Virus record (IMG/VR): IMGVR_UViG_2875713109_000005
Origin: a virus
Lineage: Duplodnaviria > Heunggongvirae > Uroviricota > Caudoviricetes
Length of the DNA stretch: 40,475 nucleotides
Strand: one strand, 5' to 3'
This document shows, piece after piece, positions 23,178-39,238 of the stretch; position 1 is the first letter of the stretch, and the number at the start of each line of letters is the position of its first letter. The notes beneath the pieces were generated by a model. The model saw only the letters and a program-made list of their open reading frames with translations. It was not told the origin of the DNA and searched no databases. Position numbers and translations under genes: made by a program.

Positions 23178-25352
23178 TTACGCCCAGTAGTTCACAACGC
23201 CATCATTCGATTCAGCCGTTTTAACCAAACGCTCTACCGATTTGGTGCAAGAAAACTCCGCCGTTATCTCTGCTTGATTATCCAACAGCGACTCAAGGCG
23301 AGGCAAGAATACACGGCTAACAAGCTCAGCTTTACTGTAATCGCCTACTTGCTTATCACCATCAAATGTGAATTTTGGTAGCACCTTATGAACGATAAAG
23401 TTGTTGATGGCCAGAGACTTATTGTCGTTTACATCGCTAAACAAACTTACGTAGTTAAGCCCCTGTCGAATGGTACGCATACCAAACTCCACGCCAAGCG
23501 GATCAAAGACATCTCGGTTTAAGGTCGTAAACAACTCGCAGAATTCATTCGTACGTTCAAATTTCGGATAAGGGGTACGCTCACCAAGCTCTTCAATATC
23601 AAACACTAGCGGTAAAGTAACGTCGTCTAGCCCGTAAGAGTCAATCTCATCAAAAATCGCATCCCAGTCGGTCAGCAAAGGACTCTTAAACTTCATCACA
23701 TGCGCGCGGTCAAGAATTTTTGGTGAGAGGTAATGGGTTGTTTCGTCGATGTTGATAGCACCAATAATTCTTACGTTCGCTGGAATCGTGATTGACGAAG
23801 GCGTGCCGAGAACACCTGCCAACATGCGTCTGATATCACCGTGGTATTTAATCAGTGAGTCTTTATCGCTAAAGCCAAACGCGCGCTTCATTTCAGCGTT
23901 AATTTCTTCATCTTGCATGAGCGCAACGAAGTCCACGATGCCATTTTTGCTGAACTTTTCTTGCGCGTTAGAAATGACAGAAACAACCCCTTTTAGCTCG
24001 GCAAGAACGTGTGCAGCTTCATCATCCGAGTAAAGTTGAATGGTCGGTTGCTCGTTACGCTCCTCTAGCTTAGAAAGAAAGTCGGCAAAGTAATATTCCA
24101 CTCGGGCAAGGTTCATTTCGTCTAAACAGATGAAGTATGGGATATCTGGGTTTTGCTTAGCCTCGATCAATGCCTCAAGAAATGGTGTCACCAAATATTT
24201 CTTCTCTAGGGGATTGTAATAACCCAGCAAATCTTCTGAACTAGTCCAGTTAGGCTTGACCGGAATGATCTTCGATACCCCACCAATAGCCTTGGCAAAC
24301 GACTGAACCAGGTTTGTTTTGCCTGAGCCTGAGTCCCCCGCCAGAATGATGAGATCATGGGTGCGAATAAGCGTTAGGAAGTTCTCGATAATATGGCGCG
24401 GGTACAAGATATCTCGTTCTTTTAGGTGCGCTTGAATGTATGAAACGGCATCACTGTAGTTAGAATCAAAAGCTTGCGAAAAAGAGATATGCTCGTCACG
24501 ATCCTTATTAGACAAGGTGCTTCCAACAAAAAGGTCAAAATCGTCATCATCCAAAAACTCAAAGCTTTTTAGGAATCCAGCCTTACTTTCGACATAAGCT
24601 TTTAAGCGTTCAATTTTTTTAGACATTGTTTCTTCTGCCTTCTTTTGCAATGCGATTTTGTGTTGCCATTCAGAGTGTTCAACTTCCAGCTTTTGGGCTT
24701 TCGCAATTGCCTGAGAGAGAACGTTATTTTTTTGATTTAGGTCATCTTGGACATGTTGAAGCTGATCTTTATATGACGATATCTGAGCCTTCAATGAGGA
24801 TTCTTCGCGCTCAAATTCTGCGTTAAGTGCAGTCACTTCGCTGTCAATTCTTGATTGAACGTTCTGTAAATGCTGCTTGTAAACAGCTTCATCAAGGAAG
24901 ATGTTTTCATCACCTTTGATGATGTCATTCGCCGTATATTCAGGAAGTTTGATAAGTCGACGGACTGAACTTACTACCACATTGCATTCGAACGGGTTTT
25001 CATGTTTTTCGCGTTCAGATTGAGGCGCTAAAGCAAGCTCGCATGAGACAAAACTCCCATCTTCCAAGCCAAATAACTCTTCGACACTTTTGAAGGAAAC
25101 AAAAACACCTTTGTCCATCGTCAAACGAACATTAATGGGATATTCAGTATCCAGTCCCGTTTGGAGGGATTTAATCTCTAAAAGACGGGTTGGGAGCTTT
25201 CTGCTATCGGAATCTGGGCCATTTAGAATCTTGCCCCAAACTGCCAGTTTTCCATTCGTAATCCCCCAACTCTCACAAAGGCATTGATAAAGCTCTTCAT
25301 CAGAGAACCCTTTAACCTCTTCAAGATTGTAGATAACTTGTTCTAAGGCCAT
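23178..25352 (-). CDS. P-loop AAA+ NTPase, McrB/AAA_5-like, with N-terminal domain and coiled coil (724 aa)
   Basis: Walker A LAGDSGSGKT (338-346), Walker B FICLDEMNLA (407-416) with the DE-x-N pattern of AAA_5/McrB proteins, sensor-like RIIGAINIDETT (528-539). Heptad-rich region about 165-255. Confidence 0.8.
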   Translation of the reverse strand: MALEQVIYNLEEVKGFSDEELYQCLCESWGITNGKLAVWGKILNGPDSDSRKLPTRLLEIKSLQTGLDTEYPINVRLTMDKGVFVSFKSVEELFGLEDGSFVSCELALAPQSEREKHENPFECNVVVSSVRRLIKLPEYTANDIIKGDENIFLDEAVYKQHLQNVQSRIDSEVTALNAEFEREESSLKAQISSYKDQLQHVQDDLNQKNNVLSQAIAKAQKLEVEHSEWQHKIALQKKAEETMSKKIERLKAYVESKAGFLKSFEFLDDDDFDLFVGSTLSNKDRDEHISFSQAFDSNYSDAVSYIQAHLKERDILYPRHIIENFLTLIRTHDLIILAGDSGSGKTNLVQSFAKAIGGVSKIIPVKPNWTSSEDLLGYYNPLEKKYLVTPFLEALIEAKQNPDIPYFICLDEMNLARVEYYFADFLSKLEERNEQPTIQLYSDDEAAHVLAELKGVVSVISNAQEKFSKNGIVDFVALMQDEEINAEMKRAFGFSDKDSLIKYHGDIRRMLAGVLGTPSSITIPANVRIIGAINIDETTHYLSPKILDRAHVMKFKSPLLTDWDAIFDEIDSYGLDDVTLPLVFDIEELGERTPYPKFERTNEFCELFTTLNRDVFDPLGVEFGMRTIRQGLNYVSLFSDVNDNKSLAINNFIVHKVLPKFTFDGDKQVGDYSKAELVSRVFLPRLESLLDNQAEITAEFSCTKSVERLVKTAESNDGVVNYWA

Positions 25353-25599: not shown

Positions 25600-26433
25600 T
25601 CAGTTAGTAAGGTCGGTTTGTTTACCTTCACATTTTCCATTTCGCCACCGTGCTGCAAACTCTGATGGCGTCTGATAATTCAGTGCTGAATGTGGACGAC
25701 ACTCGTTATAATCCTGCCGCCAGTCATTAATGATTTTCCTTGCGTGAACGATATCGCTGAACCAGTGCTCATTCAGGCATTCATCGCGAAATCGTCCGTT
25801 AAAGCTCTCAATAAATCCGTTCTGCGTTGGCTTGCCCGGCTGGATTAAGCGCAACTCAACACCATGCTCAAAGGCCCATTGATCCAGTGCACGGCAAGTG
25901 AACTCCGGCCCCTGGTCAGTTCTTATCGTCGCCGGATAGCCTCGAAACAGTGCAATGCTGTCCAGAATACGCGAGACCTGAACGCCTGAAATCCCAAAGG
26001 CAACAGTGACCGTCAGGCATTCCTTTGTGAAATCATCGACGCAGGTAAGACACTTGATCCTGCGACCGGTGGAAAGTGCGTCCATGACGAAATCCATCGA
26101 CCAGGTCAGATTGGGCGCCGCCGGACGGAGCAGCGGCAGACGTTCTGTTGCCAGCCCTTTACGACGTCTTCTGCGTTTTACGCCCAGGCCACTGAGGTGA
26201 TAAAGCCGGTACACGCGCTTATGATTAACATGAAGCCCTTCACGGCGCAGCAATTGCCAAATACGACGGTAGCCAAAACGCCTGCGCTCCAGTGCCAGCT
26301 CAGTGATGCGCCCTGATAAATGCGCATCAGCAGCCGGACGGTGAGCCTCATAGCGGCAGGTCGACAGGGACAAACCTGTAAGCCTGCAGGCACGACGTTG
26401 CGACAGACCGGTCGCATCACACATCAGCATCAC
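25600..26433 (-). CDS. IS3-family transposase OrfB (DDE/rve integrase domain), probably expressed as an OrfAB frameshift fusion
   Basis: Contains LTWSMDFV...[10 protein letters not shown]...[14 protein letters not shown] integrase-core residues. Overlaps the orfA frame. Confidence 0.8.
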
Positions 26434-26456
26434 GGCTTCCCGCTTCTGGTCTGTCG

Positions 26457-26720
26457 TCAGTACTTTCGCCCAAGAGCCACCTGAAGCGCCTCTTTATCCA
26501 GCATGGCTTCGGCAAGCAGCTTCTTGAGTCTGGCGTTCTCTTCCTCAAGCGACTTCAGGCGCTTAACTTCAGGCACCTCCATACCGCCATACTTCTTACG
26601 CCAGGTGTAAAACGTGGCATCGGAAATGGCATGCTTGCGGCAGAGTTCACGGGCGGGTACCCCAGCTTCGGCTTCGCGGAGAATACTGATGATCTGTTCG
26701 TCGGAAAAACGCTTCTTCAT
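26457..26720 (-). CDS. IS3-family transposase OrfA (HTH plus leucine zipper)
   Basis: 87 aa [46 protein letters not shown]... typical IS3-family OrfA, close to IS407-group OrfA as recalled. Confidence 0.8.
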
Positions 26721-26797
26721 GGGGATGTCCTCATGTGGCTTATGAAGACATTACTAACATCGGGGTGTACTAATCAACGGGGAGCAGGTCATAGTCT

Positions 26798-26873
26798 ATG
26801 GGCACACCACGTTTTACCCCTGAATTTAAGGAAGAAGCTGTCCGCCAAATCACCGAGCGGGGCTATTCCATCT
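26798..26873 (+). pseudogene. Possible 5' remnant of another IS3-family orfA, truncated by IS903
   Basis: Encodes MGTPRFTPEFKEEAVRQITERGYSI, resembling IS3-family OrfA N-termini. Cut off by the IS903 terminal repeat at 26874. Confidence 0.35.
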
Positions 26874-28260
26874 GGCTTTGTTGAATAAATCAGATTTCGG
26901 GTAAGTCTCCCCCGTAGCGGGTTGTGTTTTCAGGCAATACGCACGCTTTCAGGCATACCTGCTTTCGTCATTTTGTTCAGCGCTCGTACCAGGGCCATAG
27001 CCTCCGCAACCTGACCATCGTTACCCGGTACATCGCCGTTTCCGCTATCGAGCGACGGTTGTAATCTGTTGTCCATTTCCACCGCGCATTACTCCCGGTC
27101 ATTCGCTGATTAGCCACTGCACGGTTACGGTCTGCATATTCACCGGGCCAGTAACCCGCACCTTTTCGGGGAGGGATAAGNGCGCTGATTTTCTTACGCC
27201 GCAGTTCATCGTGACAGAGCCGGGTGTCGTAAGCGCCGTCTGCCGATGCTGCCCTGATTTTTCTGTGAGTCTGCCGGATAAGACCCGGGAAGGCTTCTGA
27301 GTCCGTCACATTGTTCAGCGACAGGTCTGCACAGATGATTTCATGTGTGTTGCTGTCAACTGCCAGATGCAACTTTCGCCATATACGACGGCGTTCCTGG
27401 CCATGCTTTTTGACTTTCCACTCGCCTTCACCAAAGACCTTCAGCCCGGTGGAATCAATCACCAGATGCGCGATTTCACCCCGGGTGAACGTTTTGAAAC
27501 TGACGTTAACCGACTTTGCCCGCCTGCTGACACAGCTGTAATCCGGGCANGATGATTTCATGTGTGTTGCTGTCAACTGCCAGATGCAACTTTCGCCATA
27601 TACGACGGCGTTCCTGGCCATGCTTTTTGACTTTCCACTCGCCTTCACCAAAGACCTTCAGCCCGGTGGAATCAATCACCAGATGCGCGATTTCACCCCG
27701 GGTGAACGTTTTGAAACTGACGTTAACCGACTTTGCCCGCCTGCTGACACAGCTGTAATCCGGGCAGCGNANCGGAACNTTCATCAGNGNAAAAATGGAA
27801 TCAATAAAGCCCTGCGCAGCGCGCAGGGTCAGCCTGAATACGCGTTTAATGACCAGCACAGTCGTGATGGCAAGGTCAGAATAGCGCTGGGGCCTTCCCC
27901 GTGATGAAGGCGTTGCCGACTCATACCAGGCCTGAATCGCCCCATCATCCAGCCAGAAAGTGAGGGAGCCACGGTTGATGAGAGCTTTGTTGTAGGTGGA
28001 CCAGTTGGTGATTCTGAACTTTTGCTTTGCCACGGAATGGTCTGTGTTGTCGGGAGGATGCGTGATCTGATCCTTCAACTCAGCAAAAGTTCGATTTATT
28101 NNNNNNNNNNNNNNNNNNNNNCGGTTGATGAGAGCTTTGTTGTAGGTGGACCAGTTGGTGATTCTGAACTTTTGCTTTGCCACGGAATGGTCTGTGTTGT
28201 CGGGAGGATGCGTGATCTGATCCTTCAACTCAGCAAAAGTTCGATTTATTCAACAAAGCC
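26874..28260 (-). mobile_element. IS903 copy, scrambled in this assembly (N runs and exact internal duplications)
   Basis: IS903 terminal repeats at 26874 and (reverse complement) ending 28260. Transposase reading frames present but interrupted by N at 27181, 27550, 27770-27790 and 28101-28121; segments duplicated (27343-27549 = 27560-27767; 27973-28100 = 28122-28250). About 1.39 kb versus about 1.06 kb for IS903. Confidence 0.75.
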
Positions 28261-28742
28261 CCAACCAATTAGCAATTCGCTTTTCGCATGTGCTAAAACA
28301 CCACTCTGGGTGTGCATCATTTAGCAATTCAGCCATTTTGCGTTTGGTCATCCCCCGCCCCTCATACCGTTGCCGAAGGACGCTAATCAATCCTGGATGC
28401 TCTGCCAGCACCTCACTTATGACCCGATCAATACATAACGCCTCTGCATCAGTACAATGCGCCAGCCAGCTCTTTTGCTTACCGTTAATCATATCCCGCA
28501 AAAAAGCCTCAAGTTCAGACTTGTTCAGACCTGCTTTTTTCATCCTCCGGAGCGCCTCGTTAATTGCCGTTTTTGTCAGCTTTTTAGAGGCCAACAACTG
28601 GTTGAACATATTCCCCGTCTTACCGCCGCCAATATACGACCAGCGCCCCCACATGCGCAGTTTTCCCTGAATCCAGACACTTTCCAGCGTGGTGAGACGA
28701 AGGTGTTCCCCGCTTTTGCCTGTATTTGTTGGGTAAATCATA
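28250..28742 (-). CDS. Putative late-gene regulator (antiterminator Q-like by position); 3' end abuts or is altered by IS903
   Basis: 164 aa from MIYPTNTGKSGEH...; start overlaps the upstream stop as ATGA. Lies directly downstream of nin-type genes where lambdoid phages encode Q. Last codons and stop fall in the IS903 terminal repeat. Family not confirmed. Confidence 0.4.
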
Positions 28743-29028
28743 AATAACCTTCCTTTCTCCAGATTTCTTGCGTGCGAAAAACACCTTCTGCATGCATCAG
28801 GCGTAAATCTTCTTTGGTGTAATCGCTTGTTTTTACCCGCCCGTCGATTAAATCGTGGCATGAGCTACAGGCAATCGCCGCCTGCATATCGTGTGGTTTT
28901 GTCGCTGTTCCGCACGTTCCCGCCAGTCGGTAATGCGCCAGCACAGACGTTTCCGGATCGTGATTGCAGTAGCCAAGAATTCTGACGGTGCACATCCGCC
29001 CCCGCGCCGCTTTACGTAAATCCACCAT
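28738..29028 (-). CDS. YbcO-like DUF1364 protein (putative phage nuclease, nin region)
   Basis: 96 aa MVDLRKAARGRMCTVRILGYCNHDPETSVLAHYRL...CSSCHD, cysteine/histidine-rich. Resembles DLP12 YbcO as recalled. Confidence 0.6.
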   Translation of the reverse strand: MVDLRKAARGRMCTVRILGYCNHDPETSVLAHYRLAGTCGTATKPHDMQAAIACSSCHDLIDGRVKTSDYTKEDLRLMHAEGVFRTQEIWRKEGYL

Positions 29029-29627
29029 TACGCAAACTCCAGCAGCTGCGCGGCCACATTTTCGACTTGTTCCGGAGAGGAAAATTTACGGAACAGAATC
29101 CAGTTCCACAGCACATTCAGAACAGATTTATAAACCTGCTGAAACTCGGTTTCGTCCATATTCGCAAAAGCGATAGATTTTGCCCGACGCCCGCGGCTAC
29201 CGTCCGGATAAAAATGTTCGGTGTAAAATCCAGCCTGAATGGTTACCCACTCGCGAAAAGCCTCAAACGACTTTAGCAATGCCGTATCCCGGGTTCTGCG
29301 TGTCGCAACTGTATTCAGATATTGCTCTGCGGCTTCGCTCAGAGCTGGCGTATGTTCCCGGCCTACTGATTCACATAGGTAATCAACGAATCCTGAAACC
29401 AGCTTTCGTTCGCGAGGCGTGATCGCCCCACCGACCGGAGTCCAGTAATCGAATCCCAGTTGCAGGAGTTTGAAAAAACGCTTGTGGAATGCGTAGTTAC
29501 GCACACGCTTAAAGTCTGCGTGTATCCACTCGCCTATTTTGATTTGATGCAAAAAATCGCAACTCTCCGGCGTCGCCGGGAGAAGTAGTCCAGAAGAGGT
29601 TTGTTTGACCAGTTGTATATGCGCCAT
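29028..29627 (-). CDS. Hypothetical nin-region phage protein (199 aa)
   Basis: ORF immediately upstream of and overlapping the YbcO-like gene. No motif recognised with certainty. Confidence 0.5.
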   Translation of the reverse strand: MAHIQLVKQTSSGLLLPATPESCDFLHQIKIGEWIHADFKRVRNYAFHKRFFKLLQLGFDYWTPVGGAITPRERKLVSGFVDYLCESVGREHTPALSEAAEQYLNTVATRRTRDTALLKSFEAFREWVTIQAGFYTEHFYPDGSRGRRAKSIAFANMDETEFQQVYKSVLNVLWNWILFRKFSSPEQVENVAAQLLEFA

Positions 29628-29905
29628 TTCTCAATCTCTCGATGGCGCAGTGCAGCAGATGCCAGTTGTTCAGGCTGACGAATAAAGTATAAATAAACTG
29701 GCTATGGTGTAAAGCTCCACATAACATGAACAAACACTACATATCAAATAGCTGATACAAGGATAGAAATACAACACTTATTATTAAAAACGATTAGATA
29801 AATTACATTTTAATGTTATGAAAAAGTTCTTTTTTATCATAACATTTCAACAAAAGCATTACAGATGCACATCCCGTCATCATCAATTATTTAAGGTGGT
29901 TAAAC

Positions 29906-29992
29906 ATGGAAAATAACAACTATGCACATCTCGCTCCTTTTTTATCCGTAATCCTTTTCGCTGGCTGTTTTATATGGGCATTATTTTTATAA
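29906..29992 (+). CDS. Possible small hydrophobic peptide (28 aa)
   Basis: AAGGTGG RBS-like sequence 8 nt upstream of the ATG. Encodes MENNNYAHLAPFLSVILFAGCFIWALFL (one TM helix). Within a long AT-rich intergenic stretch. Confidence 0.2.
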   Translation: MENNNYAHLAPFLSVILFAGCFIWALFL

Positions 29993-30494
29993 AGTAGCCG
30001 CATGATTAGTTTCTGGAATCATGTTTCCCACTCAAATCATTAACATTTGATAAGATATATCTAAAAGGATGCCTTTACATTATTTGATGCGTATATGATT
30101 TATTTATATGCACAGTAAAGGCATCCTGGAAATAATCAAGATTAATGATATATTGCTTATCTCATCCCCCACTGTCTTTCACCCGGAAAACATTTATCGT
30201 TAAAAATATATCATAAGTAATTAAATTGAAATTTCAGAACACAACTAATGCACACAATAAGATTCAGTAACAGTAATCTATGCGGACTATATCGAGATTT
30301 TTTAGTTAAACTTTAATAAGTTATTCCTAACACACAGAATGCACAAACTAAAAGTAAAACAAATAGTTATACGAAAAACAACCATATTGATTCTATCTTC
30401 TCCTCTAATCAACATATCAATTATGTGTTTCATAACAGCTTGACATAACCCTCAAAAAGGTGCATTTATAATGCATGTTTTATGGGAGGTGGTT

Positions 30495-30836
30495 ATGACA
30501 CACAAGAGAATTCCTAAAGACTGGGTAATCAAACGCTCAACTCCGTTCTTCACAAAAGAGAACGTACCTTCAGCGTTATTAACACATCATAATACAGCAG
30601 CAGGTGTTTTTGGACAGTTATGCGTGATGGAAGGTACTGTAACATATTATGGTTTTGCTGATGAGAATGCTACTGAACCGGAGATAAAAGTAGTCATTAA
30701 TGCTGGCGCTTTTGCAACAAGCCCACCACAATACTGGCACCGTGTTGAACTAAGCGATGATGCTCAGTTTAATATTAACTTTTGGGTAGCTCCAGACTTC
30801 TCAGGCGAAAAAGTCTATACCGCAAAAAAAGAATAG
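30495..30836 (+). CDS. YeaR-like DUF1971 protein (TehB-related domain)
   Basis: 113 aa from MTHKRIPKDWVIKRSTPFFTKENVP... with GGAGGTGG RBS. Resembles E. coli YeaR as recalled (RSTPF..., ...YYGFADENATEPE..., ...FNINFWVAP). Confidence 0.65.
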   Translation: MTHKRIPKDWVIKRSTPFFTKENVPSALLTHHNTAAGVFGQLCVMEGTVTYYGFADENATEPEIKVVINAGAFATSPPQYWHRVELSDDAQFNINFWVAPDFSGEKVYTAKKE

Positions 30837-30918
30837 CCACGCTATAAATATCTTATTAACTAGTCCCGGCGTGGTTCTTTCCCCGCTGGGTCTTTTACTC
30901 AGATTAGTAGTCTACGAA

Positions 30919-31044
30919 TCAGAGCCTCCGTCTGCCAGTTCGGATTCGTACCTCGCAGAGGTCTTTCCTCGTTACCAGTGCCGTCACTATGACGGTTAAA
31001 CAGATGACGATCAGGGCGATTAACATCGCCTTTTGCTGCTTCAT
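30919..31044 (-). CDS. Hok/Gef-family type I toxin with altered C-terminus (41 aa as encoded)
   Basis: MKQQKAMLIALIVICLTVIVTALVTRKDLCEVRIRTG matches the HokD/RelF-type N-terminus and TM helix by recall, then reads RRRL-stop instead of QTEVAVFTAYEPEE. Overlapping mok-like frame upstream. Confidence 0.55.
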   Translation of the reverse strand: MKQQKAMLIALIVICLTVIVTALVTRKDLCEVRIRTGRRRL

Positions 31045-31566
31045 AGCCTGCTTCTCCTTGACCTTTCGGTCCGTAAGAGGCTAATCTCTATGTGTCGCAT
31101 AGATATGGCCTCAGATTAATGTTAAACGTCTTGCAGGACGCGTAATGTTAACTGGGGCTTTTCTCTATCTACCTTTGGTGTTCATGCCCGAGGCAGATAG
31201 CCTCAAGCACCCACAGCAATTCTAACTATCCAATACATCACTGCCAACACTTTAAACTCTTACCCTTTAAAACAAGAACAAAATTCAACCAATCAGCATT
31301 GGGCGTATACTCATATCCTAGAGAAAACAACTCTTTCTGTACCATTTATATCCATATGATTTATAAGCATTTGCCACTTGCCATAGCCGCACAATGACAG
31401 TTTGCCATTTGATGTCAATAGATAAAAATGATCGTTTTCAATGAGTTACATACTTGCAAGGCGTTGCACATCAGGCCCGATTACGTCAGTATCAAAAGAT
31501 TACAGATGGTGCATTACTGCCACCTCGCCTTAATGTTCCAGAACTCTCCAACTTGAGGAATTTTCA

Positions 31567-32340
31567 ATGACATCCTTTCAATTATCTTTGATTTCTCGTG
31601 AAATTGACGGCGAAATAATACATTTACGTGCCAAAGATGGTTACATAAACGCCACATCAATGTGTAGAACTGCGGGCAAACTGCTCTCTGATTACACTAG
31701 ACTCAAAACTACTCAAGAGTTTTTTGACGAATTATCACGCGATATGGGAATTCCCATATCGGAGTTAATTCAATCATTTAAAGGTGGAAGACCTGAAAAC
31801 CAAGGGACATGGGTGCATCCTGACATCGCTATTAATCTAGCGCAGTGGCTATCGCCCAAATTTGCAGTCCAGGTTTCAAGATGGGTTCGTGAATGGATGT
31901 CAGGGGAAAGAACTACAGCAGAAATGCCTGTACATTTAAAACGGTACATGGTTAATCGTAGTAGAATTCCTCACACGCACTTTTCTATTCTTAATGAACT
32001 GACATTCAACTTGGTTGCACCTCTTGAACAAGCAGGGTACACACTCCCAGAAAAAATGGTTCCTGACATTTCACAAGGAAGAGTATTTTCACAATGGTTA
32101 AGAGATAATAGAAACGTAGAACCCAAAACATTCCCTACCTATGACCATGAATATCCCGATGGTCGCGTATACCCTGCAAGGCTGTACCCAAATGAATATT
32201 TAGCAGATTTCAAAGAACATTTTAACAATGTTTGGTTGCCGCAATATGCCCCGAAATACTTCGCTGACCGGGACAAAAAGGCTCTCGCCTTGATTGAAAA
32301 AATTATGCTACCTAACCTCGATGGCAATGAACAGTTCTAA
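31567..32340 (+). CDS. KilA-N domain protein
   Basis: N-terminal region (IDGEIIHLRAKDGYINATSMCRTAGKLLSDYTRLKTTQEF) has the KilA-N/APSES-type signature common in lambdoid prophages. Confidence 0.65.
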   Translation: MTSFQLSLISREIDGEIIHLRAKDGYINATSMCRTAGKLLSDYTRLKTTQEFFDELSRDMGIPISELIQSFKGGRPENQGTWVHPDIAINLAQWLSPKFAVQVSRWVREWMSGERTTAEMPVHLKRYMVNRSRIPHTHFSILNELTFNLVAPLEQAGYTLPEKMVPDISQGRVFSQWLRDNRNVEPKTFPTYDHEYPDGRVYPARLYPNEYLADFKEHFNNVWLPQYAPKYFADRDKKALALIEKIMLPNLDGNEQF

Positions 32341-32460
32341 ATGATTAGCCAGCCCCATAAGGGCTGGTTATTTAGTATTATCAACCCCAGCGGCAAATCG
32401 AATACACCACCAGCGCCACCGCCATCGCAATTCCTACCGTTGTGAATGCTTCAGGCCAGG

Positions 32461-32964
32461 TCATCGTAAAACATCCTCCACGCTTATAAGTCCGCTTCGC
32501 TCCAGGTAGTCCATCACTTTATCCGGCAATTTGCAGCCCGGTTTCGCTTTCTTCAGTTGACTAACCAATTGTTTAACCAGCATTGTCAATTCGCGAACTT
32601 GTTTCCCGGGCTCCCCTTTGCCCTGAAGCAGGGCAGCGCGGCAAGCGTTCCATCCCTCAGCATATGTTTCAGTTACACCATCGAGATGGCATGTAAGCAA
32701 ATCCATTTCTTCCGGCACTACGGGCGCTGGAAAAACGGCATAGGGTGGCGTCCATTTTGGCGCTTTATCTCCAGCCGAACGCTGATACCAGTCATCCGGT
32801 TTGTATTCATAAAAATCACCAACTGGCTCTGCTTCCAGCGATGCCAGAGCAATTTTGAATAATTCGCCCTCTACCCGTGCCATCCCTGAATTGGGGTGGC
32901 ATTTCTCAATCGCTATTTTTAATTTAGCTTCTTCGATTAATTGCTTTTTGGTTAATTCAGTCAT
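32461..32964 (-). CDS. Hypothetical phage protein (167 aa)
   Basis: ORF in the early-right region; no motif recognised. Confidence 0.5.
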   Translation of the reverse strand: MTELTKKQLIEEAKLKIAIEKCHPNSGMARVEGELFKIALASLEAEPVGDFYEYKPDDWYQRSAGDKAPKWTPPYAVFPAPVVPEEMDLLTCHLDGVTETYAEGWNACRAALLQGKGEPGKQVRELTMLVKQLVSQLKKAKPGCKLPDKVMDYLERSGLISVEDVLR

Positions 32965-33126
32965 TTTTCATTACCGCCCTTTCGGGCCGCCTCCTAATAT
33001 TTTGAGGGTGCAGCCCCCCCCCTCCGGTTAAGGATTAAATTTTATTTACAGTGCTAAATTTAATTATTCAGATTTGGATTATGATTTCTCTTTCAGTTCA
33101 CGCAGTTCCCTGATTGTTAATTTGGC

Positions 33127-33564
33127 TCACAACAGCACATCCTGAAAATTACCCTGATAGAACGCCAGTACACGCTGCATGACTTCGCTCTTCCGGCACT
33201 CGCGACAGATTATATTCAGACGCCTGTCATAGCGGCGTATTTCTCCGTCTGGTAATGACCAGATAAGGTCCGGATCAACTACAGCAGGTTTCTTCACCTT
33301 TGCCCTCGATAGTTTTTTGCGGGCGTTTTGCCAGTCTTTACGCGCCTGTTCAGACGGGAATAACCCGTAACCAGAGTTGTATACATCGCCACTGGCAACC
33401 AGCTCACTGGCGAGAACACTCATCAGATATCTTGTCGCACCTGTCTTGGCTTCCAGTTGCCGTAACGTCTCGCGACCGCTCAGACGTACAAGTTCAACAA
33501 CCTGCCCTTTAATTTTTTCCCGCTCTTCTGGTGTAAATACTTTTGCCATAGGTGCCTCCGGCAA
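33127..33564 (-). CDS. Hypothetical phage protein (145 aa; start may be the Met 5 codons in)
   Basis: Basic protein with C-terminal CxxC (ICRECRK); abuts the upstream gene stop. Confidence 0.5.
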   Translation of the reverse strand: MPEAPMAKVFTPEEREKIKGQVVELVRLSGRETLRQLEAKTGATRYLMSVLASELVASGDVYNSGYGLFPSEQARKDWQNARKKLSRAKVKKPAVVDPDLIWSLPDGEIRRYDRRLNIICRECRKSEVMQRVLAFYQGNFQDVLL

Positions 33565-34359
33565 TCACTTTTCCGATGCAACATGGCGGGAAGAATCAGT
33601 AATCTGTCGTACAATATCCCTGTGCTTGTTCAACTCACGCAGCGCGGCGCAGACACACTCCCACTTCTGGACATGATTTTTCGCCCGACGCAGTTCGCGG
33701 TTTGCCATATGCAGTGATGGTAAAACCAGGTCATCCGCTCGCGTTTCAGTAAACGATGGCAGCGACTGCACAATGTCCGCCACAGTTTCTGTTTTAATAT
33801 CTTCCTGTGTTGCAGCCTCCTGTACTGGTAACGCAACACCTGCGGTCTGAGGAAAGGCCTTACCATCAGTTTCCGCTACCGATGCTGCTTTCGGCTCTGC
33901 TGGTAAATTATCGCCCGGTATGCAGTAACGAAATTTACCGCCCTGATTTACGCGAATCAGACGACCTTTGCTGATTGCCATTGCCAGCGTTGAAGCCACT
34001 TTGCGTGATGTGGTACCAAACAATGTAGCCAGCTCATCAGCCGTTTGTGGTCCGCGTTGTTCAATCGTCGCGGTTAAATCGCACTCTGAGATTTTCGCTA
34101 CTGTTGCTGTGGTGGTTTCTTCCAGCAGTTCTACCTGCGCTGGCTGTTCCTGCTGAACGTTGTTATCAGCCACACGCCAGGTGTACGCGCTTTTATCAAC
34201 ACAACCAGCCTTTTTCAGTTCCCATAGTTCGTTCAGCACTTCTTCACGACTGATATCAAGTCGAGCAGCAAGTTCTATGGATGTGGCTTTTCCCATTGCT
34301 TTCAGTGCGTCAAAAACAGTCTCCATTAAATTTTTCTCCCGGTAAAAATTACTTCGCAA
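33565..34359 (-). CDS. Hypothetical phage replication-region protein with N-terminal winged-helix-like segment (264 aa; alternative start at 34326)
   Basis: N-terminus [43 protein letters not shown] looks like a wHTH. Overlaps the stop of the DnaC-like gene. Confidence 0.5.
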
Positions 34360-34828
34360 TTCCTAGCTGGACGACATTCGGACGCCAGCTCTCCCAGTTA
34401 AAATTCACCCATCGCCCGCCGTTCATGGTCATGCGATCCATAATCCGCTCGCCGAGCAATGTTTTCATGGCCTCATAGTTCAGGTTTGTCAGCATCCCCA
34501 CGCTGCGCATCGAAGCTGTCCGGCGATCAACAATCTGGTGCAGTACCACCTGCTCGTTTTTCGTCTCGCGCTGAATGCCAATTTCATCAAGAACCAGCAG
34601 ATCCACTTCGCACAGTTCCCGCAAAAATTTTTCGCCTGACTGCCCGTCGTCATAGCTGGCGTGCAGGGCACTCATAACATCAGCCACGGTAACCACAATC
34701 ACTGTCTGACCGTCTTTCAGCAGGCGATTCCCGATAGCTGCCGCTAAGTGGTTCTTCCCGGTAGCCATTGCTGATTGCCCACCGACAACAGCACAAGCTT
34801 GCTTGAATGAATAGTTCTCTTTTTTCAT
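34349..34828 (-). CDS. DnaC/IstB-like helicase-loader ATPase, N-terminally short (159 aa)
   Basis: Walker A-like [18 protein letters not shown], Walker B LLVLDEIG, and HQIVDRR...[23 protein letters not shown] resembling the DnaC C-terminal half. The expected N-terminal domain of about 70 aa is absent. Confidence 0.6.
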
Positions 34829-34857
34829 CGAATGAACTCCAAAAACACACAGAAATA

Positions 34858-34925
34858 TTAGGCGACGCCTAACGCAATTGTCAATAGGCTGTGCCTAATG
34901 CGGTAAGGGTAGGGATTGCCTAATG
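34858..34925. promoter_or_regulatory. Operator-like region with TTAGGC/GCCTAA half-site repeats, left of the repressor gene
   Basis: 15-bp perfect palindrome TTAGGCGACGCCTAA (34858-34872), ATTGTCAATAGGCTGTGCCTAATG (34877-34900) and TTGCCTAATG (34916-34925), in the 123-bp divergent intergenic region. Confidence 0.5.
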
Positions 34926-34951
34926 TAATGCGCATAGGAGAATATTAAGCA

Positions 34952-35428
34952 ATGCTTAGTGGTAAAGACTTAGGCCGAGCGATAGAGCAGGCCATTAACA
35001 AAAAAATCGCATCGGGATCCGTCAAATCAAAGGCGGAGGTCGCACGCCACTTCAAAGTCCAACCACCATCAATTTATGACTGGATTAAGAAAGGCTCTAT
35101 AAGTAAAGATAAACTTCCAGAATTATGGCGTTTCTTTTCTGATGTTGTTGGTCCAGAGCATTGGGGGCTTAACGAATACCCCATACCAACCCCCACCAAT
35201 TCAGATACAAAAAGTGAACTTTTAGATATAAACAACCTTTATCAAGCAGCCTCTGATGAAATAAGAGCGATTGTAGCTTTCCTGTTATCTGGAAATGCTA
35301 CAGAACCAGATTGGGTTGACCACGATGTTCGCGCCTACATAGCAGCGATGGAAATGAAAGTGGGTAAGTATCTGAAAGCTCTAGAATCTGAACGGAAAAG
35401 CCAGAACATCACAAAAACTGGAACTTAA
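34952..35428 (+). CDS. racR: Prophage repressor, RacR-like (HTH)
   Basis: 158 aa; N-terminal HTH (GRAIEQAINKKIASGSVKSKAEVARHFKVQPPSIYDWIKKG). Same length and position (divergent from the replication genes) as Rac RacR as recalled. Confidence 0.7.
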   Translation: MLSGKDLGRAIEQAINKKIASGSVKSKAEVARHFKVQPPSIYDWIKKGSISKDKLPELWRFFSDVVGPEHWGLNEYPIPTPTNSDTKSELLDINNLYQAASDEIRAIVAFLLSGNATEPDWVDHDVRAYIAAMEMKVGKYLKALESERKSQNITKTGT

Positions 35429-35505
35429 ACTTATATGGTCTGACGGAAAACTCCTGGATTCCGTTATTTAACCCCCCCATCACTTTCTGCTGTCGCCATC
35501 ACCTA

Positions 35506-35560
35506 TTAGGTTACGCTCAAAACATTAGGCATAGCCTATTGACAATCAATTAGGCATTAC
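35506..35560. promoter_or_regulatory. Second operator-like region, inverted copy of the left site
   Basis: CATTAGGCATAGCCTATTGACAAT (35523-35546) is the reverse complement of 34877-34900 at 23 of 24 positions. Additional ATTAGG half-sites at 35506-35515 and 35550-35556. Confidence 0.5.
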
Positions 35561-35736
35561 CTATAGTTCCAGCATACCACCCACCCCGCCCCACAGAACG
35601 CCGGGCAATACTTCGAGTTACCAGGCAGTGGTAAGGGGTTAAGTAGCCAGCCCGAGGCGTATGAACATGACGGCGGGATTCAAATTTTGCAGTGCAGCAG
35701 TTAGTTCCGCCACCCGGCGTTAAGGGGAGAGATAAG

Positions 35737-35871
35737 ATGGTGCATTACGAAGTAGTTCAGTATTTGATGGATTGTTGCGGTATCACTTACAACCAGGCTG
35801 TGCAGGCTTTACGCAGCAACGCCTGGGATCTCTGGCAGGCAGAAGTCGCTATACGTAGCAACAAGATGTGA
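35737..35871 (+). CDS. ydaG: Small Rac-type protein (44 aa), YdaG-like
   Basis: AAGGGGAG RBS before the ATG. Encodes MVHYEVVQYLMDCCGITYNQAVQALRSNAWDLWQAEVAIRSNKM. Size and position match Rac ydaG as recalled. Below the ORF-track length cutoff. Confidence 0.5.
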   Translation: MVHYEVVQYLMDCCGITYNQAVQALRSNAWDLWQAEVAIRSNKM

Positions 35872-35881
35872 GATTCGCAAA

Positions 35882-36037
35882 ATGCAAAAAATCGACCTCG
35901 GCAACAACGAATCCCTGGTGTGCGGCGTGTTCCCCAACCAGGATGGAACGTTCACTGCCATGACGTATACCAAAAGCAAAACATTTAAAACCGAAACTGG
36001 TGCGCGCCGATGGTTGGAGAAGCACACAGTAAGCTAA
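35882..36037 (+). CDS. ydaF: Small Rac-type protein (51 aa), YdaF-like
   Basis: Encodes MQKIDLGNNESLVCGVFPNQDGTFTAMTYTKSKTFKTETGARRWLEKHTVS. Convergent with sieB. Size and position match Rac ydaF as recalled. Confidence 0.5.
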   Translation: MQKIDLGNNESLVCGVFPNQDGTFTAMTYTKSKTFKTETGARRWLEKHTVS

Positions 36038-36522
36038 CGATTAAAACGTCTACTCCTGCTGTTCCAGAATAACTTCATAAAATGGGAGTATTTTTCGGTG
36101 ACGAGATAATAAGAACAGTTTGCGCTATCACTCTGATGTTGAATGATGCCCTTCCGTTCTAATTTTTTCATAACCGGGTTACGGCAAGGAGAAGTGATAA
36201 TAAGATTTCCTGTTTTAAGGAAATCTTTAAATACAGCGATTTCTTTCTCAGATAAACGAAGCAATACTCGTTGCTCTGGTAGTAATGAATAATGCTTTTG
36301 AATATGTGCTCGCAATCTTGAGAAGGAAATGGCGACCACGAAAGAAAAGGCAAAAACGATAATCTGAAAGAGCCAAGGTATTTCAGTATAAGCATTGAAT
36401 GCGACAGTAAACTCTTTCGGTATCAGCCAGAGAGTGAGACCAAAAATGATAATCGTATACATAAGTCTTTCGAGTGGCTCGTTAGCAAAAAGTTTCAACA
36501 ATGGAGTAAATACATCCAACAT
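36034..36522 (-). CDS. sieB: Superinfection exclusion protein SieB
   Basis: 162 aa from the internal Met (MLDVFTPLLKLFANEPLERLMYTIIIFGLTLWLIPKEF...), membrane protein. Size and position match Rac SieB as recalled. Confidence 0.75.
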   Translation of the reverse strand: MLDVFTPLLKLFANEPLERLMYTIIIFGLTLWLIPKEFTVAFNAYTEIPWLFQIIVFAFSFVVAISFSRLRAHIQKHYSLLPEQRVLLRLSEKEIAVFKDFLKTGNLIITSPCRNPVMKKLERKGIIQHQSDSANCSYYLVTEKYSHFMKLFWNSRSRRFNR

Positions 36523-36962
36523 ATCAATAACTCTCAACTGTAAGGGTATTGAAATGTTAACACAAGCTCTCGCTGTAGGGGTATAGCCGAGACCACCGAA
36601 GCCCGGAGGTGGTGAAATAAAACCGGGCACAACACGAAGGCGCATTTCCGATATCCATAAAGAGTCGGTCTTGTCTGTTAAATTTAAATGGTGGGAGTGC
36701 GCCTCCGGTTGTAAATAACGACATTGCTGTGTGTAGTCCTGGCGGCATCAGTTTTTTCTTGAAGTTCGGCTGATGTCCGCCCTTTTTTAAGTGAATTTTG
36801 TGATGCGGTGAATGCGGCTAAGCGCACGTGGCACAGTTAAAAGTCATGTTAGTCCTTATTGGTTTGGGTGGGAAAGCCGACTGTAATTGTTAACTGGTTG
36901 CAGTCACCTGGAGGCACCAGGCACCGCATCAACAAAGTTCATTTGTAAAAATGGAGATAATT

Positions 36963-37184
36963 ATGATTGCACATCACTTCGGAACTGATGAAATACCACG
37001 TCAGTGTGTGACTCCTGGCGATTATGTTCTTCATGAAGGCCGGACATATATTGCCTCGGCAAACAATATTAAAAAGCGAAAACTATATATTCGTAACCTG
37101 ACCACAAAAACATGCATTACTGACCGCATGATTAAAGTCTTCCTCGGTCGTGATGGTTTACCTGTAAAGGCGGAGTCATGGTGA
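36963..37184 (+). CDS. kilR: Prophage killing protein KilR (FtsZ inhibitor)
   Basis: 73 aa [46 protein letters not shown]...; first gene of the leftward early operon analogue. Recognised from memory. Confidence 0.7.
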
Positions 37185-37354
37185 TGACTAAGAAAATAAA
37201 ATGTGCTTACCACCTTTGCAAAAAAGACGTTGAAGAAAGCAAAGCTATTGAAAGAATGCTTCACTTCATGCACGGGATTTTATCAAAAGACGAACCGAGA
37301 AAATATTGCAGTGAATCTTGTGCCGAAAAAGACCAGATGGCACATGAACTTTAA
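37184..37354 (+). CDS. ydaE: YdaE-like small cysteine-rich protein (56 aa)
   Basis: [56 protein letters not shown]. Start overlaps the kilR stop (TGATG). Below the ORF-track cutoff. Confidence 0.6.
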   Translation: MTKKIKCAYHLCKKDVEESKAIERMLHFMHGILSKDEPRKYCSESCAEKDQMAHEL

Positions 37355-37428
37355 TTAATTGACTATTCGAAACTGAATTTATGCCAGAAATGGCAGGTAT
37401 TCGCTCAACCTTAATTAAGGAGAAAAAC

Positions 37429-37704
37429 ATGATTACCAATTATGAAGCCACTGTTGTAACTACCGATGACATTGTTCACGAGGTGAATCTGGAAGGAAAG
37501 CGCATTGGCTACGTAATTAAAACAGAAAATAAAGAAACCCCATTCACTGTGGTTGATATCGATGGTCCATCAGGCAACGTAAAAACACTTGATGAAGGTG
37601 TCAAAAAAATGTGCCTGGTGCATATCGGAAAGAATCTGCCCGCAGAAAAAAAAGCCGAATTTCTGGCAACTCTAATTGCAATGAAATTAAAAGGTGAAAT
37701 CTGA
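37429..37704 (+). CDS. racC: RacC-like protein
   Basis: 91 aa from MITNYEATVVTTDDIVHEVNLEGKRIGYVIK...; size and position match Rac racC as recalled. Confidence 0.7.
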   Translation: MITNYEATVVTTDDIVHEVNLEGKRIGYVIKTENKETPFTVVDIDGPSGNVKTLDEGVKKMCLVHIGKNLPAEKKAEFLATLIAMKLKGEI

Positions 37705-37805
37705 AAGAAATAGCCTGCGTATGGCGCAGGCTATGAACAGTGTGTATCCGGCAAGATCATTCACTGAACAAAACGAATTTTAATCTGAGTTGAGGTTAAA
37801 AAACA

Positions 37806-38249
37806 ATGAGCACAAAACCACTCTTCCTGTTACGGAAAGCGAAAAAATCATCCGGTGAACCTGACGTCGTCCTGTGGGCAAGCAACGATTTTGAATCGAC
37901 CTGTGCCACTCTGGACTACCTGATCGTTAAGTCAGGTAAAAAACTGAGCAGCTATTTTAAAGCTGTTGCCACGAATTTTCCTGTCGTTAATGACCTGCCC
38001 GCTGAAGGTGAGATCGATTTTACCTGGAGTGAACGCTATCAACTCAGCAAAGACTCCATGACATGGGAACTAAAACCGGGAGCAGCACCAGACAACGCTC
38101 ACTATCAAGGCAATACCAACGTCAACGGCGAAGACATGACTGAGATTGAGGAGAATATGCTACTCCCAATTTCTGGCCAGGAACTGCCCATTCGTTGGCT
38201 TGCTCAACACGGCAGCGAAAAGACGGAGGTACTCAGTTTGAAGTTATGA
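37806..38249 (+). pseudogene. recE: recE 5' remnant (exonuclease VIII N-terminal about 140 codons), deletion-truncated
   Basis: [46 protein letters not shown]... matches the RecE N-terminus as recalled, but the ORF stops after 147 codons. The full-length gene encodes 866 aa. Confidence 0.7.
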
Positions 38250-38491
38250 CGCGCAAACAGATTGAGCTGGTGCGCAGCCTGAGTAAAGCTGGTAATAACG
38301 GGCCGTGGGTAACTCACTGGGAAGAAATGGCAAAGAAAACGGCTATTCGTCGCCTGTTCAAATATCTGCCCGTATCAATTGAGATCCAGCGTGCAGTATC
38401 AATGGATGAAAAGGAACCACTGACAATCGATCCTGCAGATTCCTCTGTATTAACCGGGGAATACAGTGTAATCGATAATTCAGAGGAATAA
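38195..38491 (+). pseudogene. recT: recT 3' remnant (C-terminal about 85 codons)
   Basis: ...[88 protein letters not shown] matches the RecT C-terminus as recalled, in a different frame from the recE remnant. Junction near 38220-38230. Confidence 0.7.
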
Positions 38492-38547
38492 TTCAGCCTG
38501 GCGGTGTAATGCACCGCCAACTTGAAATATTTTTTATGAGAAAAATT

Positions 38548-38742
38548 ATGAGATATGACAATGTTAAACCATGTCCATTTTGTGGTTGTCCATCAGTAAC
38601 GGTGAAAGCCATTTCAGGATATTACCGAGCGAAGTGTAACGGATGCGAATCCCGAACCGGTTATGGTGGAAGTGAAAAAGAAGCACTCGAAAGATGGAAT
38701 AAACGAACCACTGGAAATAATAATGGAGGTGTTCATGTATAA
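38548..38742 (+). CDS. lar: Restriction alleviation protein Lar
   Basis: 64 aa MRYDNVKPCPFCGCPSVTVKAISGYYRAKCNGCESRTGYGGSEKEALERWNKR... with zinc-ribbon cysteines. Recognised from memory. Confidence 0.7.
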   Translation: MRYDNVKPCPFCGCPSVTVKAISGYYRAKCNGCESRTGYGGSEKEALERWNKRTTGNNNGGVHV

Positions 38743-38944
38743 AATTACCGCCACTATTGAAAAGGAAGGTGGCACTCCTACTAACTGGACAAGATATTCA
38801 AAATCTAAACTAACGAAATCAGAATGCGAAAAAATGCTCTCAGGTAAAAAAGAAGCAGGCGTTTCCAGAGAGCAGAAAGTAAAACTGATAAATTTTAATT
38901 GCGAGAAACTTCAGTCCTCGAGAATTGCATTGTATTCAAATTAA
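38735..38944 (+). CDS. ydaC: YdaC-like protein (69 aa)
   Basis: MYKITATIEKEGGTPTNWTRYSKSKLTKSECEKMLSGKKEAGVSREQKVKLINFNCEKL...; overlaps the lar 3' end. Size and position as in Rac. Confidence 0.65.
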   Translation: MYKITATIEKEGGTPTNWTRYSKSKLTKSECEKMLSGKKEAGVSREQKVKLINFNCEKLQSSRIALYSN

Positions 38945-39022
38945 AACTTCATAGCTGATTATTAATAATCAACATCGGGCGTCAATTTCAGTCTAACATT
39001 GGCGCCTGCCAGAGGTGATGCG

Positions 39023-39238
39023 ATGGCACAAGTAATCTTTAATGAAGAGTGGATGGTTGAATACGGCCTGATGCTTCGCACTGGTCTGGGGGCCAGACAA
39101 ATTGAAGCATACCGCCAGAACTGTTGGGTGGAGGGCTTCCACTTCAAACGAGTATCTCCTTTAGGTAAGCCAGACAGCAAACGAGGGATTATCTGGTACA
39201 ACTATCCAAAGATAAATCAGTTTATCAAAGACTCATGA
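39023..39238 (+). CDS. xisR: Excisionase-like protein (Xis/YdaQ-type)
   Basis: 71 aa [44 protein letters not shown]...; immediately upstream of the integrase. Confidence 0.7.

What the first reader, a model, noticed from the sequence alone, without database searches (positions are those of the whole stretch)
30919..31200. hok-family toxin gene with a frameshift-like altered C-terminus
The first 37 codons match the HokD/RelF-type toxin including the TM helix, but the reading frame then yields RRRL-stop instead of the conserved periplasmic tail. This is consistent with a 1-nt deletion near GGC-AGA (31044 minus about 111 nt). An overlapping mok-like frame upstream suggests a full hok/sok locus that has been inactivated.
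Basis: partly seen in the sequence, partly recalled or inferred. Interest (0 to 1): 0.5.

Follow-up and report, generated by a model that had tools for sequence, protein, structure and literature searches.

The report
Decayed hok/sok toxin locus in prophage
This is a real but ordinary, already catalogued remnant of a hok/sok toxin-antitoxin locus in a Rac-like prophage: the toxin gene has lost its conserved tail through several small lesions and its mRNA has lost its 3' control elements, so it is most likely harmless.

Summary
Window 30919-31044 (-) encodes a 41-aa Hok/Gef protein (Pfam 3.2e-16). Its first 37 residues are identical to HokD and it ends in RRRL-stop. It is not a sequencing error. 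The same haplotype is in 104 of 5426 complete E. coli genomes, three phage genomes and thousands of assemblies, and RefSeq lists the protein as WP_001445775.1.

The deletion is a second hit. A rare 48-aa allele in the same context keeps the C but already has a scrambled tail (QTEALIRRLLI). Compared with hokW, the tail also carries an 8-to-6-nt change, a GAA-to-TAA stop and a 3-nt deletion. Homology to hok loci ends at about 30868, so the fbi element and the terminator are missing.

The 5' half is intact: promoter, leader (Rfam RF01794, 101.5 bits), a 19-codon mok uORF and sok.

The tail is almost invariant among related Hok proteins. Published R1 hok and Gef data show it is needed for killing. 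The best reading is therefore a non-toxic, decaying type I toxin-antitoxin locus, which is a known phenomenon. Interest is low.

The parts
31219..31247 (-). hok promoter-like site: TTGGCA, 17-nt spacer, TAGAAT
   Evidence: 10 of 12 consensus matches. It sits just upstream of the first base of the Rfam leader match (31212). The TAGAAT hexamer is conserved in all aligned alleles.
31042..31212 (-). hok mRNA 5' leader (tac, ucb, mok ribosome-binding site, Sok target); intact
   Evidence: Rfam RF01794, full-length match at 101.5 bits. Intact hokD and hokW alleles score 100.8-113.5 bits. Over the leader (about 31042-31212) the sequence differs from intact hokD alleles at only a few positions; the promoter region upstream diverges.
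31041..31100 (-). mok-like uORF: 19 codons (MRHIEISLLRTERSRRSRL) plus a TGA that overlaps the hok ATG (ATGA)
   Evidence: Intact hokD alleles L004-L006 have the same arrangement. In 933W, mokW is fused in frame to hokW.
31094..31162 (+). sok antisense RNA (69 nt): 5' single-stranded leader, long hairpin, U-tail
   Evidence: Mapped by alignment to the annotated sokW of 933W. Predicted fold -26.3 kcal/mol.
31058..31087 (+). putative sok promoter: TTGACC (31058-31063), 18-nt spacer, TAATCT (31082-31087)
   Evidence: Read from the sequence. It is positionally homologous to TTGCCT-17-TAACCT upstream of the annotated sokW. The -10 is too weak to pass the consensus scan. Intact hokD alleles carry the identical sequence.
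30919..31044 (-). truncated hok ORF: 41 aa, transmembrane helix plus Cys30, ending RRRL-stop
   Evidence: PGAP annotates it as WP_001445775.1.
30934..30935 (-). site of the 1-nt deletion (GGCCAG to GGCAG)
   Evidence: The 48-aa alleles L008-L010 keep the C.
30919..30924 (-). second tail lesion: CTCTGA in place of TCGCTGTC (net -2 nt); it supplies the TGA stop
   Evidence: The 48-aa alleles share it.
30895..30918 (-). untranslated remnant of a hokW-type tail: TTC GTA GAC TAC TAA TCT GAG TAA (FVDY*SE*), with GAA to TAA at 30904-30906 and a 3-nt deletion before the old stop
30865..30890 (-). weakened or hybrid 3' hairpin and the end of hok homology (about 30868); downstream lies the DUF1971 module, with no fbi and no hok terminator
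   Evidence: -13.0 kcal/mol against -17.7 to -22.2 in intact alleles. Searches show a similar hairpin ending a DUF1971 module that has no hok.

Best explanation
This is a decaying hokD/hokW-type hok/sok type I toxin-antitoxin locus. It lies in the region between the replication genes and Q of a Rac-like lambdoid prophage.

The 5' half is intact and is probably still transcribed. It comprises the hok promoter, the leader with its tac/ucb elements, the 19-codon mok uORF and the convergent sok gene.

The 3' half is wrecked. The ORF keeps the N-terminal transmembrane helix and Cys30. The conserved periplasmic tail (GQTEVAVF-x-x-YE-x-E-x) is replaced by RRRL-stop. The cause is an older tail lesion (net -2 nt), which produced the 48-aa allele, followed by loss of one C at 30934. 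A nonsense codon and a 3-nt deletion also lie in the former frame. Recombination with the convergent DUF1971 module removed the fbi element and the terminator and weakened the protective 3' stem-loop.

The inferred result is a non-toxic peptide made from an unstable, mis-regulated mRNA, that is, a pseudogene. This single haplotype has spread with the prophage family.

Shown here: the anatomy, the lesions, their likely order and the distribution. Inferred: loss of toxicity, and continued expression of sok and the hok leader.
For: Identity and anatomy.

Lesions by alignment to 933W hokW and to intact hokD alleles.

Precursor allele: a 48-aa allele with the same tail and junction but with the C present, in the same gene context.

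Tail conservation: among 151 retrieved Hok proteins the tail is nearly invariant. Only the 41-aa and 48-aa forms deviate, and no intact 'EALIFVDY'-type variant exists (best hits to that query are 94% identical and carry the VAV tail).

fbi: in intact alleles the first 20 nt of the mRNA pair with the 3' UTR 43 nt after the stop (-27.5 kcal/mol, GCACCCGC). That sequence is absent from the window.

3' stem-loop: -13.0 against -17.7 to -22.2 kcal/mol.

Further decay in relatives: L016 and L019 carry the same ORF but have lost the whole leader and sok, and their Shine-Dalgarno sequence is mutated.

Literature:
- In R1 hok, 18 of the 20 possible premature stops abolish toxicity. So do a mutant the authors label G311T / M46I and Hok Y48N, C-terminal extension or a FLAG tag, and mutations in the last 3' stem-loop. 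mok translation is needed only up to the hok start (PMC9841398).
- Replacing the Gef C-terminal region with PhoA gave a non-toxic protein (cited in PMC8509063).
- Many chromosomal hok loci are inactive through mutations, insertions or rearrangements (PMC8309996).

Read directly from the sequence: the residues after the transmembrane helix go from net -2 in HokD to net +5 here. Under the positive-inside rule this works against export of the tail.
Against: No experiment has tested this 41-aa peptide. Other type I toxins of 19-35 aa kill with little more than a transmembrane helix, and HokC toxicity also depends on the transmembrane region (PMC8509063), so residual membrane activity cannot be excluded.

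The 5' regulatory half is as well preserved as in functional alleles. PGAP does not flag the ORF as a pseudogene. The haplotype is very common. Eight of the ten sampled 41-aa loci are identical to the window across the locus, and the other two differ only by loss of the leader. This fits a recent spread and says nothing either way about selection.
Confidence: 0.8

Rival explanations
1. The truncated peptide is still active. The transmembrane helix plus a short basic tail would still damage or permeabilise the inner membrane, for example helping lysis after induction as HokW does in Sp5, under control of the intact mok/sok leader.
For: The promoter, leader, mok uORF and sok are intact. HokW assists lysis and phage release (PMC8621323). 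The HokC transmembrane region contributes to toxicity. The allele is carried by inducible phages and by thousands of genomes.
Against: The tail is nearly invariant in the family. In R1 hok, premature stops, tail substitutions and even C-terminal extensions abolish killing. The mRNA lacks the fbi element and the terminator, and its 3' stem-loop is weaker. Relatives have gone on to lose the leader and the Shine-Dalgarno sequence. The extra RRR makes the tail strongly positive.
Confidence: 0.1
2. The toxin is dead but the locus survives as an orphan antitoxin. Sok made from it would neutralise intact hokD-type mRNAs that share the same leader, on other prophages or plasmids in the cell (an anti-addiction or cross-immunity role).
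For: The sok region and its promoter are almost identical to those of intact hokD alleles L004-L006. E. coli genomes that carry any hok-like locus have a median of two.
Against: Sok expression was not measured. L016 and L019 have lost sok altogether. The 5' half may look conserved simply because the haplotype is young. The Sok 5' leader differs from SokW at several positions, so any cross-talk would be limited to the hokD clade.
Confidence: 0.08
3. The altered C-terminus is a sequencing or assembly artefact, or the native tail is restored during translation by frameshifting or stop-codon readthrough.
For: The deletion lies in a CC dinucleotide. Three rare Arg codons (AGA CGG AGG) come just before the stop. 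After the TGA the frame returns to FVDY.
Against: An identical sequence is present in 104 complete genomes, three phage genomes and 2444 collection blocks. Restoring the base gives QTEALIRRLLI*. The third frame gives ADGGSDS*. Readthrough of the TGA meets TAA after four more codons (and reading of the sequence). No frame yields the conserved tail.
Confidence: 0.01

Closest known systems
hokD (relF) alleles with a complete hok/sok leader in E. coli prophages (for example WP_000813254.1 and WP_000813256.1 in strains EM10-18-28, E2528-C1 and MLI106K1)
   Same: The leader, mok uORF, sok region and codons 1-37 are the same or nearly so, and Rfam scores are comparable.
   Different: Those alleles encode 51 aa with the tail GQTEVAVFT[AV]YEPEE. 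They keep the fbi element (GCACCCGC) and the terminator CCCGCTTCGGCGGGTTTT. The window has none of these.
hokW-sokW of Stx phages 933W and Sp5 (a functional type I toxin-antitoxin system; Takada et al. 2021, PMC8621323)
   Same: 91.8% DNA identity over 344 nt. The remnant tail codons (TTCGTAGACTAC.AATCTGAG) are of the hokW type. Both lie in lambdoid prophages.
   Different: In 933W, mokW is fused in frame to hokW, the Sok 5' leader differs, HokW is 51 aa and toxic, and the 3' UTR is intact.
Inactivated chromosomal hok loci of E. coli K-12 (hokA, C, E by IS elements; hokB by point mutation; hokD by rearrangement; Pedersen & Gerdes 1999, as summarised in PMC8309996)
   Same: A hok locus disabled by small mutations together with a rearrangement that separates it from part of its regulatory RNA.
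   Different: K-12 hokD keeps an intact ORF but has lost its leader and sok. Here the leader and sok are kept, and the ORF tail and the 3' UTR are lost.
hok/sok of plasmid R1 (parB)
   Same: The same architecture in the 5' half: promoter, tac/ucb leader, mok, convergent Sok, and a Hok transmembrane helix with the conserved Cys.
   Different: R1 mok is a 70-aa leader peptide whose CDS overlaps the hok CDS (PMC9841398). R1 has tac/fbi end-pairing and 3' processing. The window lacks the fbi element, the terminator and the toxic tail.

Membership tests
Hok/Gef toxin family (Pfam PF01848) | Significant match to the family profile | tested here: met
   E=3.2e-16, 59.1 bits against a cut-off of 22. 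The match covers profile positions 1-34 of 42 only.
Hok/Gef toxin family (Pfam PF01848) | N-terminal transmembrane helix followed by the conserved Cys (C30 here) | tested here: met
   Residues 1-37 are identical to HokD and HokW.
Hok/Gef toxin family (Pfam PF01848) | Conserved periplasmic tail (E-V-A-x-F-x-x-Y-E), including the Tyr/Cys position | tested here: not met
   The tail is RRRL-stop. The tail is nearly invariant in 151 relatives.
Hok/Gef toxin family (Pfam PF01848) | Toxicity on expression | not testable with these tools
   Loss of toxicity is inferred from R1 hok and Gef mutagenesis.
hok/sok type I toxin-antitoxin locus (RNA level) | 5' leader with tac/ucb elements and the mok translation initiation region (Rfam RF01794) | tested here: met
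   101.5 bits, full model length. This is in the range of intact alleles.
hok/sok type I toxin-antitoxin locus (RNA level) | mok reading frame translated at least up to the hok start | tested here: met
   A 19-codon uORF ends in ATGA on the hok start, as in intact hokD alleles. The functional requirement is described in PMC9841398.
hok/sok type I toxin-antitoxin locus (RNA level) | Convergent Sok antisense RNA with its own promoter | tested here: inconclusive
   The sequence is homologous to the annotated sokW and folds as leader plus hairpin plus U-tail. The -10 is weak and the scan does not call it. Expression was not measured.
hok/sok type I toxin-antitoxin locus (RNA level) | 3' fbi element that pairs with the 5' tac element | tested here: not met
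   Intact alleles give a -27.5 kcal/mol duplex 43 nt after the stop. The window lacks that sequence. Its best alternative is -22.6 kcal/mol inside the DUF1971 CDS, a value that 15 of 438 windows tiled across this sequence reach.
hok/sok type I toxin-antitoxin locus (RNA level) | Rho-independent terminator and a stable 3' stem-loop on the processed mRNA | tested here: not met
   The terminator CCCGCTTCGGCGGGTTTT is absent. No terminator-like site was found. The stem-loop is -13.0 against -17.7 to -22.2 kcal/mol.

The most novel reading that the evidence does not exclude
The intact sok and leader, or the 41-aa transmembrane peptide itself, has been co-opted. It might act as a cross-acting antitoxin or a dominant-negative partner that blunts intact HokD-type toxins from co-resident or incoming prophages and plasmids. 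Alternatively it might be a minimal membrane-active helper of lysis in this Rac-like phage family.
Probability: 0.07. Interest if true: 0.45.

Novelty: already known. Interest (0 to 1): 0.12.

Why it matters
It matters little beyond annotation. [quoted passage not shown] Counts of toxin-antitoxin systems in E. coli genomes and prophages may therefore be inflated by this allele. It is a clean natural example of stepwise decay of a hok locus: a tail frameshift, then a second indel, then loss of the leader in some lineages. If the peptide or the orphan Sok turned out to be active, it would be a modest addition to the biology of prophage type I toxin-antitoxin systems.

Tried and rejected
(1) Sequencing error. 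Rejected: the identical haplotype is in 104 complete genomes, three phage genomes and 2444 collection blocks.

(2) A single-base repair restores Hok. Rejected: it gives QTEALIRRLLI*, and that 48-aa allele exists naturally.

(3) A natural intact variant with an 'EALIFVDYESEK' tail as ancestor. I searched with that hypothetical protein. The best hits are 94% identical and carry VAV, so no such variant was found.

(4) A 47-aa 'FVDY-stop' allele as an intermediate. Its database hits are partial genes cut off at contig ends, not real alleles.

(5) A substitute fbi element. A -22.6 kcal/mol pairing of the mRNA 5' end with 30782-30802 was found, but 15 of 438 windows tiled across this sequence do as well, and the site lies inside the DUF1971 coding sequence. 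I treat it as chance.

(6) Recoding by frameshifting at the rare Arg codons, or TGA readthrough. No frame yields the conserved tail (and the sequence).

(7) The supplementary table of PMC9841398, which lists which premature stops abolish toxicity, is not held. The most C-terminal loss-of-function stop could therefore not be looked up.

(8) PADLOC gave no hit for the 41-aa ORF or for the DUF1971 protein.

Full report
**1. What is there**

On the minus strand, 31044 to 30919, is a 41-codon ORF: MKQQKAMLIALIVICLTVIVTALVTRKDLCEVRIRTGRRRL*. It matches Pfam HOK_GEF at E=3.2e-16, but only over profile positions 1-34 of 42. Residues 1-37 are identical to K-12 HokD and to HokW of phage 933W.

The 171 nt upstream (31042-31212, minus strand) match Rfam RF01794 over the full model length at 101.5 bits (gathering score 59, E=8.5e-24). 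Rfam names this family 'sok', but the match lies on the hok-sense strand and spans the hok 5' leader. Intact hokD and hokW alleles score 100.8-113.5 bits.

Other features of the 5' half:
- A promoter-like site, TTGGCA-17-TAGAAT (31247-31219, minus strand), lies just upstream of the first leader base.
- A mok-like uORF starts at 31100 and runs for 19 codons. Its TGA overlaps the hok ATG as ATGA.
- By alignment to the annotated sokW of 933W, sok lies at 31094-31162 on the plus strand. It is preceded by TTGACC-18-TAATCT at 31058-31087.
- The predicted Sok fold is a single-stranded 5' leader, a long hairpin and a U-tail.

**2. The lesions**

I aligned the locus with 933W hokW, with three intact hokD alleles that have complete leaders, and with K-12 hokD. 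The 5' half and codons 1-37 belong to the hokD clade. The 2-nt and 1-nt indels that make mok a short abutting uORF are shared with intact hokD alleles, so they are not damage.

From codon 38 onward the window differs from every intact allele:
- (a) GGC/GGT CAG has become GG-CAG.
- (b) TCGCTGTC has become CTCTGA (net -2 nt). This supplies the TGA stop.
- (c) The frame then returns to a hokW-type tail, TTC GTA GAC TAC, but the next codon is TAA instead of GAA.
- (d) Three nucleotides are missing before the old stop codon.
- (e) Homology to all hok loci ends at about 30868.

In intact alleles, the first 20 nt of the mRNA pair with GCACCCGC 43 nt after the stop codon (-27.5 kcal/mol). That is the tac/fbi end-pairing, and it is followed by the terminator CCCGCTTCGGCGGGTTTT. 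Both are absent from the window.

The best substitute pairing is -22.6 kcal/mol at 30782-30802, inside the convergent DUF1971 gene. Fifteen of 438 windows tiled across this sequence do as well, so I treat it as chance.

The stem-loop that protects the processed mRNA is weakened: -13.0 against -17.7 to -22.2 kcal/mol. A DUF1971 module without hok, in another E. coli strain, ends in a similar hairpin. The junction therefore looks like recombination at a short stretch of shared sequence.

**3. Order of events and distribution**

The exact 41-aa protein is in the large protein collection on at least 1000 contigs and in 2444 collection blocks. RefSeq names it 'MULTISPECIES: Hok/Gef family protein'. 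PGAP calls it WP_001445775.1 and does not flag it as a pseudogene.

The tail-plus-junction haplotype is present at 99% identity or more in 104 of 5426 complete E. coli genomes. No junction of intermediate identity was found. Three phage records carry the locus at 100% identity: vB_EcoS-666R9, -673R7 and -613R10.

The protein obtained by restoring one base (...GQTEALIRRLLI, 48 aa) also exists, as WP_204698205.1 in three assemblies. It sits in the same gene context: KilA-N, hok, DUF1971, DUF1367, YbcO, Q. It has the same scrambled tail and the same junction, but reads GGCCAG. The most economical reading is that the 1-nt deletion hit a tail that was already frameshifted, although the reverse order (a one-base insertion into the 41-aa allele) is not excluded.

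In ten sampled loci carrying the 41-aa allele, the locus is 100% identical to the window in eight. The other two have the same ORF, but the whole leader and sok are deleted and the Shine-Dalgarno sequence is mutated. That is further decay.

A search with a hypothetical intact 'EALIFVDYESEK' tail found nothing better than hokW-type VAV tails at 94% identity. Among 151 retrieved Hok proteins the tail GQTEVAVF[VT][DA]YE[SP]E[KE] is nearly invariant. Only the 41-aa and 48-aa forms deviate.

**4. How it most likely works, or no longer works**

The evidence from the literature is as follows.
- Deep mutational profiling of R1 hok/sok shows that 18 of the 20 possible premature stops abolish killing. 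So do a mutant the authors label G311T / M46I and Hok Y48N, C-terminal extension or a FLAG tag, and mutations in the last 3' stem-loop (PMC9841398).
- The same study shows that mok translation is needed only up to the hok start.
- Replacing the Gef C-terminal region with PhoA gave a non-toxic protein (cited in PMC8509063).
- HokW, with an intact tail, is toxic and is neutralised by sokW (PMC8621323).
- Chromosomal hok loci are commonly inactivated by mutations, insertions or rearrangements (PMC8309996).

Read directly from the sequence, the residues after the transmembrane helix change from net -2 in HokD to net +5 here. Under the positive-inside rule this works against export of the tail.

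I therefore infer, with confidence of about 0.8, that the locus is a non-toxic remnant. Its 5' half (hok leader and sok) may still be transcribed. Loss of toxicity and continued expression are inferences; neither was measured.

**5. Rival readings**

- Residual toxicity or a lysis-helper role for the short peptide: about 0.1.
- An orphan-Sok cross-antitoxin role: about 0.08. This is compatible with a dead toxin.
- Sequencing artefact or translational recoding: about 0.01. No reading frame gives the conserved tail.

**6. Context**

Window 28250-40475 is the left arm of a Rac-like lambdoid prophage, from the integrase to Q. It is 98.4% identical to vB_EcoS-666R9. After Q it is cut off by IS elements. 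Beyond these lie a candidate defence pair (PDC-M26), a TEM-like beta-lactamase gene and a Tn3-family transposase gene.

The hok remnant lies between a BstA-like KilA-N gene and a DUF1971 gene, in the accessory region between the replication genes and Q.

**7. Verdict**

It is an ordinary, widespread and already catalogued decayed member of a well-known family. Novelty: already known. Interest: about 0.12. The practical point is one of annotation, because this allele is counted as a Hok toxin in databases.

Noticed in passing
window 28250-40475: This is the left arm of a Rac-like lambdoid prophage, from the integrase (39240-40475) to the Q-like antiterminator (28250-28861). It is 98.4% identical to phage vB_EcoS-666R9. 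The phage match stops right after Q, so the lysis and structural genes are missing here.
   Followed up: partly
window 25600-27651: Two IS transposase genes lie at the point where the prophage is cut off: an IS3-family rve gene (25600-26433) and a DDE_Tnp_1 gene (26977-27651).
   Followed up: partly
window 20572-25352: Two large genes give full-length matches to the PADLOC candidate defence system PDC-M26: A is a 724-aa AAA_5 ATPase and B is an 867-aa protein with a PD-(D/E)XK nuclease domain. The pairing resembles McrBC.
   Followed up: partly
window 15069-19838: A Tn3-family transposase gene (1054 aa, 15069-18233) lies next to a 286-aa class A beta-lactamase gene (18978-19838), which looks like a TEM-type resistance transposon.
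   Followed up: no
window 31567-32340 (+): The gene next to the hok remnant encodes a KilA-N protein with a BstA-like C-terminal part (PADLOC BstA 2e-21). It may be a prophage-encoded abortive-infection defence gene.
   Followed up: partly
window 30471-30836 (+) and 30865-30890: A DUF1971/TehB-like gene converges on hok. The hairpin after its stop codon (CCCGGCG...CGCTGGG followed by TCTTTT on the + strand, -17.5 kcal/mol) is a hybrid of the hok 3' stem-loop and the hairpin of the DUF1971 module. It may act as that gene's terminator.
   Followed up: partly
window 30904-30909 (-): The TACG motif at the tail Tyr codon is reported as the TadA A-to-I editing site in hokC, hokD and hokE (PMC5630033). 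Here it reads TACT, because the same G-to-T change creates the TAA stop. It lies after the stop codon, so it has no effect.
   Followed up: no
L016 3880-4150 and L019 (other E. coli assemblies): These carry the same 41-aa ORF, but the whole hok leader, mok and sok are deleted. The ORF is joined to a truncated DUF1627 gene and the Shine-Dalgarno sequence is mutated (AGGAG to AGGGT). This is a later stage of decay of the same allele.
   Followed up: yes
window 30782-30802 (-): The first 20 nt of the hok mRNA can pair with this stretch inside the DUF1971 coding sequence (-22.6 kcal/mol). The 5' end reads GU in the window and in L009 but GC in L008 and L010, which adds one base pair. Fifteen of 438 windows tiled across this sequence do as well, so it is probably chance.
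   Followed up: yes
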